Source: the human T2T-CHM13v2.0 reference genome, Homo sapiens. From it: 64,000 nt of DNA. The position numbers and the translations under genes were made by a program. The stretch lies in the NCBI RefSeq assembly GCF_009914755.1, contig NC_060942.1, one strand, 5' to 3'. Below are positions 42,901-52,325 of the stretch, piece by piece (position 1 is the first letter of the stretch; each line of letters starts with the position of its first letter). A model generated the notes under the pieces. The model was not told where the DNA came from, did not search any database, and saw only the letters and a program-made list of their open reading frames with translations.

Positions 42901-43081
42901 ATGCAGGTAGAGAAAGAGGCTCTTTCAGTGCAGCAAATGCACAATTCTGCTTTGATGCCTTTAAAGAAATTAGCTATGGCCACGCAACTGAGAATCTCTT
43001 CTTTTGTCCCTTGACTCTCCTGTCTCCTTGGCTGTGGGGCTTTTTGGAGCCAGAGGCAACAGTGCATCTCACATGGAGAAG
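42901..43081 (+). pseudogene. Pseudo-serpin exon 2 equivalent
   Basis: Acceptor ttgtattccag ends 42900. Codon-1 position (42915) is AGA, not ATG. Reads GSFSAANAQFCFDAFKEISYGHATENLFFCPLTLLS/(1-nt deletion ~43026)/LAVGLFGARGNSASHMEK|gtgcat. Confidence 0.93.
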
Positions 43082-43266
43082 GTGCATCACAACACACTTT
43101 CAGTCATGTCTAGAGGACAATCAGGTTACAATTTCAAACACTGTCATGATATGGAGATTTTATAGATGCTGGACTCTGTAAACACAAGAGAAGGTCCACT
43201 CTCGCCTAAAGTTTCCTAGGAAATTGCCTCCCTCAAAAAAGGGTGTAAAAGGTAAGAGTGTCCATA

Positions 43267-43567
43267 GGCCGGGCGCGGCGGCTCACGCCTGTAATCCCAG
43301 CACTTTGGGAGGCCGAGGTGGGTGGATCACAAGGTCAGAAGATTGGGACCATCCTGGCTAACATGGTGAAACCCCGTCTCTACTAAAAATACAAAAAAAT
43401 TAGCCAGGCGTGGTGGTGGGCACCTGTAGTTCCAGCTACTCGGGAGACTGAGGCAGGAGAATGGCGTGAACCCGGGAGGCGGAGCTTGCAGTGAGCCGAG
43501 ATCATGCCACTACACCTCAGCCTGCGCAACACAGCGAGACTCCGTCTCAGGAAAAAAAAAAAAAAAA
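43267..43567 (+). mobile_element. AluY-like SINE in the pseudogene intron
   Basis: TSD agtgtccata at 43257-43266 and 43569-43578. Confidence 0.93.
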
Positions 43568-44332
43568 CAGTGTCCATAGCTCTCTTCTGTGGAGCAGTCG
43601 AAGAAGGGATAGCCGAGGCTGGAAGGAGGAGACACACTCAATGATGCCAACCAGGCCCATGGAAAATTGGGAGTCCCCACCTCCATCCCTTCCTGTACAT
43701 TCTTAGCTACCAAGTGCCATCCTGGTGTAAGTCAGCATCCCAAGATGCTTCCTAAAATTCGGGCCCCTTTAACCTCCTTTCTTCTACTTCCTCTTATGTG
43801 ATCTGTTTTCTCAAAACACAATCTAGGTGCCAGGTGGACTGAAATTAATGTGTTTTAAGACACAAGTGGATAACTCAAGTCAGATGATAAGTATACAATA
43901 TTCAGGATTGTGCTGAATTGTGCTCTGTGCATAGTAAATGACCAGTGCCTCTAGCACCCAGCGCTAAGGAGGCTTTACAAAACTATTTTTGCCCATTGAC
44001 TCAATAATTGCTGGATGAATAAACAAATGACTATAGATCACATAAAGAATATTTCATAAGGCTTCTGTCCCCAAGAGGCTTATAATCTAATGAAAGAATT
44101 TACAATCTTCTAAGGGTAAATAGTACTGCAACTCAATTGAGAATTTTAGGTGAGTGGAGAAAATATTTCTTAGTAGGGATCTTTCCATTTGCCTTAATTA
44201 TCTCTCTATTTTAGAGGGGATAATTAACTAATGGAACAAGCCTTCTCCCAATTTGGGTTTTAAACTGGAAGTTAATTGAGAAGCTGTAGTCTAACACGGA
44301 ATTTAATGTTATTTTTAAAAACAAGAAAAATT

Positions 44333-44640
44333 GGCCAGGCCTGGTGGCTCACGCCTATAATCCCAGCACTTTGGGAGGCTGAGGCAGGTGGATCACTTGA
44401 GGTCAGGAGTTCGAGATCAGCCTGGCCAACATGGTGAAACCCCGTCTTTACTAAAAATACAAAAATTAGCCGGGCATGGTGGCAGGCGCCTATAATCCCA
44501 GCTACTCAGGAGGCTGAGGAAAGAGAGTCGCTTGAATCTGGGAGGCAGAGGTTGCAGTGAGCCGAGATTGTGCCATCGCACTCCAGCCTGGGGGACAAAA
44601 GCAAGACTTCGTCTCAAAAAAAAAAAAAAGAAAAGAAAAG
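44333..44640 (+). mobile_element. AluS-like SINE
   Basis: Full Alu with A-tail. Confidence 0.9.
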
Positions 44641-45219
44641 AAAGAAAAATTAAATGTTAAGGCTGTTGTGTTCCATTTTTTTCTCTTTGCGTGCATTAGA
44701 AGAATAGCTCCTGAGTGACTCACCCATAATATGTGTTTGGTAAGTATATATATGTGGAGATGGAGACATAGTTGAGAATGAGGAAGCTGTGGGAATCTTT
44801 ACAATCATCTTGGGATGTGGATGCATAGGGTAGAATCCCTCTGTCCTCACCCGCTTTCTTCAACGTGAGAGACTGGCTGGCCGCCTTGGCTGCACTTGTG
44901 CTGCCTCAGGTTTTGCAACCAGAGATATGGTGTGGGCTGCAGTGCTGCGGGCACAAGTCAGACAGAGAGTCTGGAGTGGAAATAATTATTTGTCTCTGAC
45001 AGCCAAGCTGACCGAGTAAGAACAGAATCAAATCAAACTTTTCCTTCTCTTCTTCCCATACAAAAATGAAGAAGAATTCTCATATTTTTCCTCTTAATGA
45101 TTCTTCCCCCAAAACATTCAGAGATTGAGCCAAATGCTTAGAATTGCAGGCTTAATAATTGCACTTTTCTTTTGATGATGGCGGTAATGGAAATGATGAT
45201 AATGAGGATGATGATGGAA

Positions 45220-45238
45220 GCAACACCAGGGGGCGCCA
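45220..45238 (+). promoter_or_regulatory. Candidate CTCF-binding site
   Basis: gcaACACCAGGGGGCGCCA has one mismatch to the CCACCAGGGGGCGC core. Confidence 0.55.
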
Positions 45239-49558: not shown

Positions 49559-50115
49559 TATTATGAATAATGCTGCTGTGAATATTCCTGTAAAAGGCTT
49601 TTTGAGTACATATTCTTTCACTCCTGTTAAATAAATATCTACTAGTGGAATTGCTGGGTCATAGGGTACATGCAAATGTACATGTAAGAAAATATGCTAG
49701 ATTTTCTCAGAAGATTTTGTCTTTTATTTTACATTTGAGTTTTTGCTCCATGTCATTATTATTAGTCAAGGATTTTACTGAAGGTAGAAAAACAAAGACA
49801 CATTAACAGTATAACATTTATTAACAGTATGACAAGAAAATTTCATCCACAATTTTGCATGTTTCTATAAAATAGATAAATAGGCTATACACTCACTTTC
49901 TTTTCTTCTGCATCTTCCACATTCCTTGTCCATTATATAATTGGGAATGCTTTACATATTTGCTCAAAAGTCTTGTTTTTGGTTCATATGAAGATATCTG
50001 GTGTTAATTATATATGCCAGTTAAAAATAGATCTAAAGTCAAAACAAAACCAGTGAAAATAATTCATATTCAATTGTTGATTAAGTATGGTCTTGCTTTG
50101 TTTCACTTCCCACGG

Positions 50116-50258
50116 GTGAAATCTAGGATCTCTTATCACCCCACAGCCTCATATCTCCCAATCAGCTGGTGTTGGTTAATGCCATCTCCTTCAGAGAGAA
50201 CCAGAAAAATGCACTTCAGAAAGACCAAACAAAAGCAATGGCTTTCACGTTGGATGAG
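50116..50258 (+). pseudogene. Pseudo-serpin exon 6 equivalent (143 nt)
   Basis: (G)EI*DLLSPHSLISPNQLVLVNAISFRENQKNALQKDQTKAMAFTLDE|gtggtc. TAG at 50124-50126; acceptor cag changed to cgg; exact 143-nt phase 1/0 size. Confidence 0.92.
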
Positions 50259-50611
50259 GTGGTCTCATGTAGTCTCATGGCTTAATTTGTTTATCTCTTA
50301 AAAGTAATCCTCAAAATTTTTGTCCTTAAGAACTGCTAAATTATTTCTGGCCTTAGGGAAGCAAATTAATTTCCAAGTGGCTATCCTAGCTACATTTGCA
50401 ATAAAAAGCAGATTTTGATTTATAAAATATTTATTTTTTTGTTGAACCTTTCTTTAAAATTTTCCACTGTTTTTTACCCTGTATAAAAATAGAAATTCTA
50501 TTTTAGCAATGCAGTTGTACAATTGAAAAATGCTATGAAATATAGACTTTGAAAGTATTTAAAATAAGTCTTGGTTAAGACCACTTAAACTATTATCAAG
50601 CCACTTACCTC

Positions 50612-51140
50612 TTGCTAACTGGAAATAAGGTCAGGCAATAGAAAATAACAGCAAGAGACAACTGAGGAACTAACAGGCAAATCACTTCTTTTAAAATTAT
50701 ACTTTAAGTTCTGGGATACATGTGCAGAATGTGCAGGTTTGCTACCTAGGTATACATGTGCCATGGTGGTTTGCTGCACCAGGCAGGTCACTTCTAAAAT
50801 GAGTTTGATCTCCCTACAAAGCCAAGCTGAACTGGTGAACAAAATGCACAGTCAAGGTGGAAGGTTCTAGGCTTACTGCCCTTCTACTTAGCACCCTCAG
50901 CCTTCCCAACTTTTCTAAGTGTCAAAAATGTCCCAAATATCAGGCCACAACCAAAATAAGACATGTTATTTAACAAGAAAGAATTGATCTGTATATAATA
51001 ACTAAGCCACTGTGCTATCAAATGCATTTATTCCAGCCCACCAAGGAATGCTTGAAATTACAAGTAAATTTAAAATTTGTTCTTGTCAACTGTAAGAATA
51101 GACTTTCTATTTCTGAATAAATACTTTTCATATAAAATAA
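50612..51140 (+). repeat. Copy 2 of the duplication, with a short L1 insertion
   Basis: Matches copy 1 except for a ~90-bp insert at 50690-50779. Confidence 0.92.
50690..50779 (-). mobile_element. Very short 5'-truncated L1PA 3' end
   Basis: ttatactttaagttctgggatacatgtgcagaatgtgcagg...tttgctgcac; imperfect TSD caggcaaatcacttct / caggcaggtcacttct. Confidence 0.88.
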
Positions 51141-52168
51141 GTAGTAAATTAAGGAGAAACATAAACCTCTAGCCAAACACATTAGTCATATCTGGAAGTA
51201 TGTAGTAATGCCCTTACAAAGAATATTACCATCACATTCACATTTTGAGGTTATAAAATGAACAATAAATTATATAGATGTTATGGCTGTGATTTTTGAA
51301 AATACAGATTCTAGGGCCACCTTCCTGGGGACTCTGATTTGCATGATGAACTTGAGTATACATATTTTCAAAGAGCCCCTTAGGTCCTTCCAAGGATCAG
51401 CCCGGTTGGGGAATCACAGTATGTAGAAAATGGGCTATTTTAGCAGGATTCATAAAGAGATGCTCAAAGGGGTAAGCATACCCCACAGCAAATAGATTTG
51501 CTAGAGAAAGCAGCTAACAAAACAGAATATTTTATTTCACAGAAAAATCTCATCCATTTGGCTTATATACACAATGCAGGTGTATATACCTGTTAACTAG
51601 CATTTCAAAGATAAAAACATAAAGTATCATTATGGTCATAACAAAATTTCCTTAAAGTAGTCCAATTATGAGAGCTCACCTAGTGCTTTGTCACATTCTT
51701 AGCTATTTTGTAACTCCAGAAATTATCAGAATCAGCTCAATGCTGCTGACTAGTTAAGATTAGTCAGATTTTACTCGAGCTGGAGAGACTTCTAAATTAT
51801 GCTCTTGAAAGGACCTATTTGTCCTTTAAAAATGGTTATCCTGGTAAGATCTTATGGTGTGGGTATTTCCCAGCCCTTTGAAGTGAATTAACTGCATCTG
51901 GAAGTCAAAAAAGTACACCTGAATGAAATTAATATATTGGGGAACTTGAATACTTTGGACTTTAGTAGCAGCTTTGTTTAGGTTCCTCCCCTCTTTATGT
52001 CATCAAAATAACGTTCAATCGTAGGTATTTCTAAAGACGGATGGATGGTTTTCTTTTGCCACCAACTGTAGGCAATTTTGGAGGATGAAAATAAACATAA
52101 ATTTTCTATGTCCTAAATAGCAAAAGAAAGAGATTGGCTTTATTATTTCACTGTTTTTACTTTTGTAG

Positions 52169-52325
52169 TCTCAGAGCAGACCTGTGGAGATGATACATGC
52201 TCCATTTAGCTTTAAAAGGAGGCTCCATTAAGGACCCTCCTTTACAAGTGCTTGAGATGCCCAACGTGGAGGATCACCTGAGTGTGGTCATTGTCCTACC
52301 CAGCAAAGACATCCACTTGGAACAG
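52169..52325 (+). pseudogene. Pseudo-serpin exon 7 equivalent (156+1 nt)
   Basis: ttttgtag|SQSRPVEMIHAPFSFK/(+1 nt near 52214-52217)/GGSIKDPPLQVLEMPNVEDHLSVVIVLPSKDIHLEQ|ataaac; donor GT changed to AT. Confidence 0.9.

What the first reader, a model, noticed from the sequence alone, without database searches (positions are those of the whole stretch)
42901..52325. Hidden fossil clade B serpin gene downstream of SERPINB7
Five exon remnants lie in the correct order on one strand, with the intron phases of the 8-exon clade B serpin plan: 42915-43081 (168-1 nt), 47231-47281 (51), 48705-48830 (126), 50116-50258 (143) and 52169-52325 (156+1). Reconstruction: GSFSAANAQFCFDAFKEISYGHATENLFFCPLTLLS[A]LAVGLFGARGNSASHMEK | VLHLDELTRTSSSSNEE | CDQDRRVYSRIQAFLSEISKSSCNQAHMASGIFAEAAHPLLL | ... 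| GEI*DLLSPHSLISPNQLVLVNAISFRENQKNALQKDQTKAMAFTLDE | SQSRPVEMIHAPFSFK/GGSIKDPPLQVLEMPNVEDHLSVVIVLPSKDIHLEQ. Lesions: ATG replaced by AGA, a -1 and a +1 frameshift, a TAG stop, two dead acceptors and one dead donor. It keeps introns, so it is not a retrocopy. By hand, exon 2 matches the SERPINB7 exon in this window at only 23/56 aa, and exons 4 and 7 differ in size (126/156 vs 117/147), so it is not a recent SERPINB7 duplicate. The ORF track shows only parts of exons 2 and 3. I do not recall an annotated pseudogene here but cannot verify that.
Basis: partly seen in the sequence, partly recalled or inferred. Interest (0 to 1): 0.9.

Follow-up and report, generated by a model that had tools for sequence, protein, structure and literature searches.

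The report
Dead ovalbumin-like serpin gene in humans
Between SERPINB7 and SERPINB2 the human genome holds the broken remains of a serpin gene that is still whole in horses, cattle, whales, bats, shrews, sloths, manatees and colugos, so it records a gene lost on the way to humans.

Summary
Five exon remnants lie in order on the + strand at 42901-43081, 47231-47281, 48705-48830, 50116-50258 and 52169-52325.

It is not a copy of any human serpin. Identity to the best human paralogue, SERPINB11, is 62/173, and to SERPINB7 54/186. It is the human remnant of a separate clade B serpin gene that NCBI's pipeline names "ovalbumin-like". That gene is an intact protein of about 385 aa in at least ten other placental orders. 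Identity is 148/210 to the horse protein and 145/210 to the colugo protein.

In a maximum-likelihood tree the fossil sits inside that mammalian clade (100/100), next to the colugo (95/81). Exons 5 and 8 were not found in the window, in the 44 kb up to SERPINB2, or elsewhere in the genome.

It is therefore a unitary pseudogene. The RefSeq table supplied does not annotate it, and I found no paper describing it. Whether the lineage is the true orthologue of bird ovalbumin is unresolved (AU p 0.455). GENCODE could not be checked.

The parts
42901..43081 (+). Exon 2 remnant. Coding part is 42915-43081 (168-1 nt). The start codon is replaced by AGA at 42915-42917. A 1-nt deletion at 43026/43027 shifts the frame. 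Acceptor AG and donor GT are intact.
   Evidence: tblastn with 11 orthologues: 66-78% identity over 35-36 aa (44-46% in the three rows whose alignment ran on past the frameshift), and 75-80% over 20 aa after the shift. Orthologue profile E 1.6e-13 and 4.8e-07. Pfam Serpin positions 2-30, E 1.3e-3. PDB: chicken ovalbumin 19/36 identical, E 2.5e-9.
47231..47281 (+). Exon 3 remnant (51 nt, CD-loop exon). Open frame, AG and GT intact, no lesion seen.
   Evidence: 62-81% identity over 16-18 aa to 8 of the 11 orthologues queried. Orthologue profile E 0.078. Same 17-aa length as in the intact mammalian proteins and the sauropsid ovalbumin family; SERPINB11 is 3 aa longer there.
48705..48830 (+). Exon 4 remnant (126 nt). 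Open frame, donor GTAAGT intact, acceptor dinucleotide TA (dead).
   Evidence: 53-71% identity to all 11 orthologues queried, E down to 1.4e-13. Profile E 1.6e-15. No Pfam hit and no PDB hit.
50116..50258 (+). Exon 6 remnant (143 nt, starts with 2 nt of a split codon). Acceptor GG (dead). TAG at 50124-50126 where the orthologues have Lys. Donor GT intact.
   Evidence: 54-75% identity to all 11 orthologues queried. Profile E 1.1e-15. Pfam Serpin positions 142-184, E 7.7e-5.
52169..52325 (+). Exon 7 remnant (157 nt = 156+1). Acceptor AG intact. 1-nt insertion near 52217 shifts the frame. Donor AT (dead).
   Evidence: 41-67% identity over 38-41 aa to all 11 orthologues queried. Profile E 2.1e-13. 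Pfam Serpin positions 208-234, E 0.12. No PDB hit for the 36-aa piece.

Best explanation
The stretch 42.9-52.3 kb is a unitary (unprocessed, single-copy) pseudogene. It is what remains in humans of a distinct clade B serpin gene that lay between SERPINB7 and SERPINB2 in the placental ancestor. That gene still encodes an intact serpin of about 385 aa, auto-named 'ovalbumin-like', in many other placental mammals.

Shown here: on the human lineage the gene has lost its start codon, exons 5 and 8 are no longer detectable, and it carries two frameshifts, one stop and three dead splice sites. It cannot encode a serpin.

Inferred:
- It has no function now.
- The loss is old, on the order of tens of millions of years.
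- The start-codon loss came before the exon-2 frameshift.
- The ancestral protein was probably a non-inhibitory serpin.
For: (1) All five remnants match intact 'ovalbumin-like' proteins far better than any human serpin. Identity is 148/210 to horse, 145/210 to colugo and 133/210 to manatee. It is 62/173 to human SERPINB11, 54/186 to SERPINB7, and 24-32% to the other eight human 18q paralogues.

(2) In the careful ML tree (45 rows, 389 columns) the fossil pairs with the colugo (95/81). That pair lies inside a 9-row boreoeutherian group (97/89), which lies inside the 12-row mammalian 'ovalbumin-like' clade (100/100). This follows the species tree.

(3) The orthologues are real genes. P0012 and P0043 cover Pfam Serpin positions 3-370 and 2-370 of 370, at 318 and 354 bits. 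In one search, 39 of the 120 listed rows have at least 46% identity to P0012. The 37 of these that carry an organism name come from shrews, horses and rhinoceros, camelids, pigs and peccary, ruminants, hippopotamus, whales, fruit bats, colugos, a sloth, manatee, elephant, sengis, tenrecs and a golden mole. None comes from a primate, rodent, lagomorph or carnivore.

(4) It is single-copy. A whole-genome six-frame search with the colugo protein finds 64-73% identity only at this locus. The other 47 of the 51 matches are at most 53% identical; those on chromosomes 18 and 6 are known clade B serpin exons.

(5) Introns are retained and the exon sizes and phases are those of the 8-exon clade B plan.

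(6) Lesions are listed. Exons 5 and 8 were not found.

(7) An unnamed ORF (P0005; 86% identical over 35 aa) shares Arg at the Met1 position and several derived residues. It reads through the human frameshift site in one frame.
Against: - No single piece reaches Pfam's gathering score.
- Exon 4 and the second part of exon 7 have no match among solved structures.
- Exon 3 rests on a weak profile score (E 0.078) plus its position, length and intact splice sites.
- I could not read the DNA of other mammals. The position of the intact gene between SERPINB7 and SERPINB2 in those species is therefore not shown. The only hint is that the 'ovalbumin-like' and SERPINB11 proteins of alpaca, and of the black flying fox, sit on contigs of equal length.
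- Failure to find exons 5 and 8 shows they are not detectable, not how they were lost.
- Transcription of the remnant was not tested.
- The date of death is not measured.
Confidence: 0.9

Rival explanations
1. It is the human remnant of ovalbumin proper. On this view the mammalian 'ovalbumin-like' lineage is the one-to-one orthologue of the bird/crocodilian ovalbumin-OVAX-OVAY gene. The ovalbumin lineage would then predate the mammal-sauropsid split and have been lost in primates.
For: - Among solved structures, exon 2a hits chicken ovalbumin (39.2 bits), OVAX (34.3) and another ovalbumin (31.4). The next serpin scores 14.7 bits.
- The fossil lineage, SERPINB11, SERPINB7 and the sauropsid ovalbumin family form one clade (98/93).
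- Forcing mammalian 'ovalbumin-like' plus sauropsid ovalbumins into one clade costs only 0.77 log-likelihood units (AU p 0.455).
- Both groups share a 17-aa exon 3 and an '...LP / .YL.C' junction between exons 4 and 5.
- Literature lead, identity unverified: cattle LOC522479, 'ovalbumin-like', is cycle-regulated in oviduct and endometrium.
Against: - The best tree puts the sauropsid clade outside (SERPINB7+SERPINB11)+'ovalbumin-like', though weakly (87/43).
- The PDB ranking is biased. No SERPINB7, B11 or B12 structure appeared among the hits, and human SERPINB11 matches exon 2a about as well as ovalbumin does (17/35 against 19/36).
- Alligator 'ovalbumin-like' is closer to human SERPINB11 (87/173) than to the horse protein (93/210).
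- A 156-nt exon 7 also occurs in human B3, B4, B10, B11 and B13.
- The two Cys positions are shared with SERPINB11.
Confidence: 0.2
2. It is a duplicated pseudogene: a dead tandem copy of a gene that still exists in humans, SERPINB11 or SERPINB7.
For: It lies next to SERPINB7. SERPINB11 is the best human match for exon 2a (17/35) and exon 7b (15/33).
Against: - Identity to human B11 (62/173) and B7 (54/186) is about half of that to the intact 'ovalbumin-like' proteins.
- The tree places the fossil inside the 'ovalbumin-like' clade at 100/100, away from the ten-row SERPINB11 clade, which includes human B11.
Confidence: 0.02
3. The locus is not dead. It still works as a non-coding RNA, as a regulatory element of the serpin cluster, or encodes a short peptide from the remaining exons.
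For: Exon 3 is unbroken, and 3 of the 5 acceptors and 4 of the 5 donors are still canonical. Nothing in my calls tested transcription.
Against: - The RefSeq table supplied lists no transcript or functional element here.
- The serpin-frame start codon is gone.
- Lesions of several kinds have accumulated, as expected for neutral decay.
- The fossil's end branch is 0.295, against 0.112 for its colugo sister.
Confidence: 0.05
4. The resemblance is due to chance or low-complexity sequence.
For: None beyond the sub-threshold Pfam scores.
Against: Six colinear profile hits lie on one strand, with E from 1e-15 to 0.078. The best unrelated hit in 81.5 kb, both strands, has E 3.3.
Confidence: 0.005

Closest known systems
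Mammalian 'ovalbumin-like' clade B serpins (automatic NCBI/UniProt names; e.g. P0043 colugo, P0042 horse, P0049 cattle, P0046 pig, P0050 manatee, P0012 shrew)
   Same: Same gene lineage. Identity is 63-70% in all five surviving exons for eight of the eleven aligned (49-54% for shrew, tenrec and sengi). Exon lengths are the same: 17-aa exon 3, 42-aa exon 4, 52-aa exon 7. The fossil nests among them in the tree.
   Different: They are intact serpins of 384-390 aa. The human copy has no start codon, no detectable exon 5 or 8, two frameshifts, a stop and three dead splice sites. I found no paper that characterises these proteins. Cattle LOC522479 appears only in two expression tables.
Human SERPINB11 (the closest living human paralogue; described as a polymorphic gene/pseudogene in PMC3290568, abstract seen, and PMC2864566, passages seen)
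   Same: Same 8-exon clade B plan and the same subclade (98/93). The Cys at the start of exon 4 and the Cys in exon 5 are shared in the non-human SERPINB11 rows; the human row, cut short in exon 4, shows only the exon-5 Cys.
   Different: Only 62/173 identical to the fossil. Its exon 3 is 3 aa longer. SERPINB11 keeps a consensus inhibitory-type hinge, which the 'ovalbumin-like' proteins lack. SERPINB11 is a whole gene with one polymorphic stop, not a wreck.
Avian and crocodilian ovalbumin, OVAX and OVAY (SERPINB14 family)
   Same: Same subclade. Best match among solved structures for exon 2a (19/36). Same exon-3 length. Like the 'ovalbumin-like' proteins, bird ovalbumin departs from the inhibitory hinge consensus.
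   Different: Only 33-40% identical to the fossil. One-to-one orthology is not supported by the best tree and not rejected by the AU test. The literature seen says these genes have no human orthologue (PMC1308813 section 5; PMC3682532 introduction).
Listed human clade B serpin pseudogenes SERPINB8P1 and SERPINB9P (6p25; Heit et al. 2013, PMC3880077 Table 2, passages seen)
   Same: Dead clade B serpin loci in the human genome.
   Different: They lie at 6p25 and are named after living human genes. The fossil is at 18q21 and has no living human counterpart.

Membership tests
Serpin superfamily (Pfam PF00079) | Match to the serpin profile above the curated cut-off (27 bits) | tested here: inconclusive
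   Three of four fossil pieces match colinearly at 18.5, 22.5 and 12 bits, each below the cut-off; exon 4 has no hit. The intact orthologues P0012 and P0043 pass at 318 and 354 bits over the whole profile. The fossil matches a profile of those orthologues at E 1e-15 to 5e-07 in five pieces.
Clade B serpin, 8-exon gene plan | Conserved intron positions and phases, with the extra CD-loop exon | tested here: met
   Exon sizes are 168-1, 51, 126, [exon 5 missing], 143 and 156+1. The split codon falls at the start of exon 6. Human paralogues modelled the same way give 165-168, 118, 143 and 138-168 nt for exons 2, 5, 6 and 7 (one exon-5 boundary failed), with exon 4 variable at 69-138. Only 5 of the 7 coding exons are present.
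Unitary pseudogene | Disabling lesions in the coding sequence | tested here: met
   ATG to AGA, 1-nt deletion, TAG, 1-nt insertion, two dead acceptors, one dead donor. Exons 5 and 8 undetectable.
Unitary pseudogene | No intact copy of the same lineage elsewhere in the genome | tested here: met
   Whole-genome six-frame search with the colugo protein gave 51 matches. The four at this locus include the only ones at 64-73% identity; the other 47 are at most 53%, and those on chromosomes 18 and 6 are known clade B paralogues.
Unitary pseudogene | Intact orthologue in other species at the syntenic place | tested here: inconclusive
   Intact orthologues are shown. Synteny could not be read, because no mammalian genome other than this one is held. 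The only hint is equal contig lengths for 'ovalbumin-like' and SERPINB11 in alpaca and in the black flying fox.
Processed pseudogene (retrocopy) | Exons joined without introns | tested here: not met
   The five exons are spread over 9.4 kb, separated by 4.1, 1.4, 1.3 and 1.9 kb.
Ovalbumin (SERPINB14) orthologue | Sister to the sauropsid ovalbumin/OVAX/OVAY clade, to the exclusion of the other mammalian serpins | tested here: inconclusive
   The best tree places the sauropsid clade outside (B7+B11)+'ovalbumin-like' at 87/43. The constrained tree is 0.77 log-likelihood units worse, AU p 0.455.
Inhibitory serpin (applies to the ancestral protein, judged from orthologues) | Hinge consensus with small residues at P12-P9 (E-x-G-T-E-A-A-A-A-T type; consensus recalled, and visible in the human paralogue rows) | tested here: not met
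   All 11 intact 'ovalbumin-like' rows have bulky or polar residues there (for example S-E-F-T-L-T-N-Q-T) and a loop about 5 residues shorter than in human B2-B4, B7, B8 and B10-B13. The human fossil lacks this exon altogether.

The most novel reading that the evidence does not exclude
The wreck is the human copy of the ovalbumin gene itself. On this reading the mammalian 'ovalbumin-like' lineage is the true orthologue of bird ovalbumin/OVAX/OVAY. It would have been kept as a steroid-regulated, non-inhibitory serpin of the female reproductive tract in many placentals: cattle LOC522479 varies with the cycle in oviduct and endometrium. It would then have been lost independently in primates and some other orders. 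That would overturn the statements seen in print that ovalbumin genes are bird-specific and have no human orthologue. It would also give a mammalian system for asking what ovalbumin is for.
Probability: 0.2. Interest if true: 0.75.

Novelty: new member of a known kind. Interest (0 to 1): 0.5.

Why it matters
It adds an eleventh gene to the ancestral placental 18q21-type clade B serpin cluster. It also adds one more unitary pseudogene to the human list, in a cluster that has been studied closely.

It draws attention to an uncharacterised serpin that is intact in livestock and many wild mammals. That protein has a non-consensus reactive-centre hinge. In cattle it appears, if the gene identity holds, as a cycle-regulated transcript of oviduct and endometrium.

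It bears on an open disagreement about where bird ovalbumin came from. One view derives it from SERPINB12 after the bird-mammal split. The other treats it as co-orthologous with SERPINB3/B4 (PMC9363672, passage seen). My tree instead groups ovalbumins with SERPINB11, SERPINB7 and this lineage.

For human biology the practical weight is small, because the locus is dead.

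Tried and rejected
Searches for the missing exons 5 and 8, all negative:
- Exon-wise profiles from human paralogues.
- tblastn with 11 orthologues.
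- Orthologue profile over all ORFs of at least 8 aa.
- Restricted low-stringency tblastn.
- Local alignment against shuffles of the 215 nt before exon 6; scores 17-19 against shuffle means 18-20.
- Whole-genome search.

False leads for exon 5:
- An apparent fragment at 48938-48988 is an AT-rich tandem duplication.
- One at 49468-49534 lies in a masked repeat and is out of order.

Other serpin-like traces, all treated as chance:
- +92344-92631 (window numbering, outside the window): exon-8 profile E 0.094.
- -74006-74119: exon-2 profile E 0.29.
- -42227-42448: E 4.9.
- The first and third have no Pfam hit. None is hit by the orthologue profile.

Features that turned out not to be diagnostic for ovalbumin:
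- Exon sizes. The ovalbumin exon sizes are only recalled, and a 156-nt exon 7 occurs in five human paralogues.
- The PDB ranking, because B7, B11 and B12 did not appear among the hits.

Other steps:
- The search for homologous proteins with exon 2a returned only the window's own ORF, since no 5-residue words are shared with relatives.
- The first tree carried 18 residues of exon 2b in the wrong frame and was unfinished. It was replaced.
- A date from branch lengths or lesion counts was attempted by hand. It gave anything from about 30 to over 80 million years, so I give no date.
- The search of earlier findings was not open.
- Benarafa & Remold-O'Donnell 2005 and Tian et al. 2010 are not held. 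I know them only through citations in papers I read.

Full report
**1.

One search lists the limits and lesions:

| Exon | Coordinates | Length | Acceptor / donor | Lesions |
|---|---|---|---|---|
| 2 | 42901-43081 | 168-1 coding nt | AG / GT | AGA at 42915-42917 in place of the start codon; 1-nt deletion at 43026/43027 |
| 3 | 47231-47281 | 51 nt | AG / GT | none |
| 4 | 48705-48830 | 126 nt | TA / GTAAGT | dead acceptor |
| 6 | 50116-50258 | 143 nt | GG / GT | dead acceptor; TAG at 50124-50126 |
| 7 | 52169-52325 | 157 nt | AG / AT | 1-nt insertion near 52217; dead donor |

Exon 2 is 22/56 identical to the SERPINB7 exon of this window.

**2. It is a serpin, and not by chance**

- Pfam Serpin matched 3 of the 4 pieces scanned, at profile positions 2-30, 142-184 and 208-234. 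That is the right order, but each piece scored under the 27-bit cut-off, and exon 4 matched nothing.
- Exon profiles built from the ten human 18q paralogues found exon 2 (E 1.6e-8, and 4e-3 for the shifted half), exon 6 (1.5e-4) and exon 7 (8.9e-4). They found no exon 5 or exon 8.
- Against single human paralogues the pieces are only 27-49% identical where the true exon is hit. SERPINB11 is best for exon 2a (17/35) and exon 7b (15/33).

**3. What the gene is**

Among solved structures, exon 2a hit chicken ovalbumin (39.2 bits, 19/36 identical), OVAX and a second ovalbumin. All other serpins scored 15 bits or less.

A full HMMER scan of 1.84 billion representative proteins with the same 36 residues gave 34 hits at E 0.001 or better. 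One of them, P0012, is an intact 389-aa serpin that resembles the fossil in every exon.

Searching with P0012 brought names. It is 'ovalbumin-like [Sorex araneus]'. Of the 120 listed rows, 39 are at least 46% identical to it. The 37 that name an organism come from these groups (assignment to orders is my own knowledge):
- shrews
- horses and a rhinoceros
- camelids, pigs, a peccary, ruminants, hippopotamus and whales
- fruit bats
- colugos
- a sloth
- manatee and elephant
- sengis, tenrecs and a golden mole

None comes from a primate, rodent, lagomorph or carnivore. The next rows are alligator and bird ovalbumin-family proteins and mammalian SERPINB11, all at 34-40%.

**4. The fossil belongs to that lineage**

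- tblastn with eleven of these proteins hit all five remnants: exon 2a at 66-78% (44-46% in three rows whose alignment ran on past the frameshift), exon 2b at 75-80% over 20 aa, exon 3 at 62-81% (8 of 11), exon 4 at 53-71%, exon 6 at 54-75% and exon 7 at 41-67%.
- A profile of nine of them scored E 1.1e-15, 1.6e-15, 1.6e-13, 2.1e-13, 4.8e-07 and 0.078 for the six pieces. The best unrelated ORF among 5604 had E 3.3.
- Over the columns where the fossil has residues, it is 148/210 identical to horse, 145/210 to colugo, 62/173 to human SERPINB11 and 54/186 to SERPINB7. Intact orthologues from different orders are 66-86% identical over the same columns.
- I built a careful maximum-likelihood tree of 45 rows and 389 columns. 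It held the fossil, 11 mammalian 'ovalbumin-like' proteins, 12 sauropsid proteins, SERPINB11 from eight mammals, ten human paralogues modelled from genomic loci, and a few others. The fossil pairs with the colugo (95/81), inside a boreoeutherian group (97/89), inside the mammalian clade (100/100). An earlier unfinished tree had 18 residues in the wrong frame and is superseded.

**5. What is missing**

Exon 5 (residues 115-154 of the orthologues) and exon 8 (257-385, with the reactive-centre loop) were not found:
- between the flanking exons,
- in the rest of the window,
- in the 44 kb up to SERPINB2, or
- anywhere else in the genome.

In the genome-wide search the colugo protein's exon 8 hit only known serpin genes, the clade B paralogues at 31-46%. 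That same search shows the locus is single-copy. Two apparent exon-5 fragments are an AT-rich tandem duplication and a masked repeat.

**6. Best explanation: a unitary pseudogene**

Shown:
- the lesions,
- the retained introns,
- the lack of any living human counterpart,
- intact orthologues elsewhere.

Inferred:
- Neutral decay. The fossil's end branch is 0.295, against 0.112 for the colugo.
- An old death. An unnamed ORF (P0005) is 86% identical, shares Arg at the Met1 position and several derived residues, and still reads through the human frameshift site. This suggests the start codon went first. I give no date, because my hand estimates ranged from about 30 to over 80 million years.

Not shown: that the intact gene of other mammals lies between SERPINB7 and SERPINB2. 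No other mammalian genome is held.

**7. What the living gene may do (from orthologues and two papers only)**

All 11 intact proteins have a non-consensus hinge and a reactive loop about five residues shorter than in most human paralogues. Most carry a conserved N-x-T sequon in that loop. That points to a non-inhibitory serpin.

Cattle LOC522479 is listed as 'ovalbumin-like' or 'ovalbumin' in two expression tables:
- It is 5.3-fold lower in the follicular than in the luteal phase in oviduct isthmus epithelium (PMC4524109, Table 4; passages seen).
- It has log2 fold-change 4.54 at 12 h after progesterone-device removal against oestrus in endometrium (PMC12091746, Table 1; passage seen).

I could not verify by sequence that LOC522479 is the orthologue.

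**8. Relation to bird ovalbumin**

The fossil lineage, SERPINB11, SERPINB7 and the sauropsid ovalbumin family form one clade (98/93). Inside it the sauropsid clade is sister to the three mammalian lineages, but only at 87/43. Forcing 'ovalbumin-like' and sauropsid ovalbumins together costs 0.77 log-likelihood units (AU p 0.455).

The name is therefore a best-hit name, and one-to-one orthology is open. The features I looked at do not settle it:

| Feature | Shared with sauropsid ovalbumins? | Also shared with |
|---|---|---|
| Exon-3 length (17 aa) | yes | SERPINB7 |
| Two Cys positions | yes | SERPINB11 |
| 156-nt exon 7 | (ovalbumin size only recalled) | five human paralogues |

Papers seen say the following:
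- The ovalbumin genes have no human orthologues (PMC1308813, section 5 read; PMC3682532, introduction passage).
- They seem bird-specific, and sources disagree on whether they derive from SERPINB12 or are co-orthologous with SERPINB3/B4 (PMC9363672, passage).

**9. Is it known?**

- The RefSeq table for this window has no row between SERPINB7 and the window's end.
- Heit et al. 2013 list eight human serpin pseudogenes, none at 18q21 (PMC3880077, Table 2 passage).
- Zhang et al. 2010 on unitary pseudogenes mention only SERPINB11 among serpins in the main text (supplements not opened).
- Nine full-text searches found no paper describing this human remnant or characterising the mammalian gene.
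- GENCODE, HGNC and gene-loss databases could not be consulted. The intact orthologues are already in public protein databases.

I therefore rate it a new member of a known kind, with interest 0.5.

Noticed in passing
window 34344-34472 (+): The 43-aa translation resembles the N-terminal extension of the sloth 'ovalbumin-like' model P0048 (18/48 identical; E 0.007 in the 81.5-kb search, 6e-6 pairwise). It lies 8.4 kb upstream of exon 2. It could be a trace of the non-coding first exon that the sloth model translated by mistake, or a shared repeat.
   Followed up: partly
window 48925-49010 (+), inside the fossil's intron 4: An AT-rich tandem duplication with a unit of about 50 nt, present in two copies. 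It produced a spurious exon-5-like tblastn hit.
   Followed up: yes
L052:8344-8631 (+), which is window numbering 92344-92631, outside the window and 16 kb before SERPINB2: A 96-aa open frame with a marginal match to a profile of human exon 8 (E 0.094, positions 24-84 of 135). It has no Pfam hit and no hit with the orthologue profile, so I treat it as chance. It could be a much older serpin trace.
   Followed up: partly
P0005, P0025, P0026 (unnamed ORFs returned): These are exon-2 ORFs of the same lineage from other genomes, each broken differently. P0005 lacks the start codon but keeps the frame. P0025 keeps the ATG but has internal deletions. P0026 has Val at the start position. They suggest decayed copies in several other species. 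Their origin was not sought.
   Followed up: no
Literature: cattle LOC522479 (PMC4524109 Table 4; PMC12091746 Table 1): A cattle gene listed as 'ovalbumin-like' or 'ovalbumin' is among the most strongly cycle-dependent transcripts of oviduct isthmus epithelium and endometrium, and is higher in the progesterone-dominated phase. Neither paper discusses it in the passages seen.
   Followed up: partly
Tree: Human SERPINB7 sits on a long branch (0.78). It joins SERPINB11 only weakly (59/11). Alligator 'ovalbumin-like' is closer to human SERPINB11 (87/173) than to the mammalian 'ovalbumin-like' proteins (93/210). The automatic names in this subclade are therefore not a guide to orthology.
   Followed up: partly
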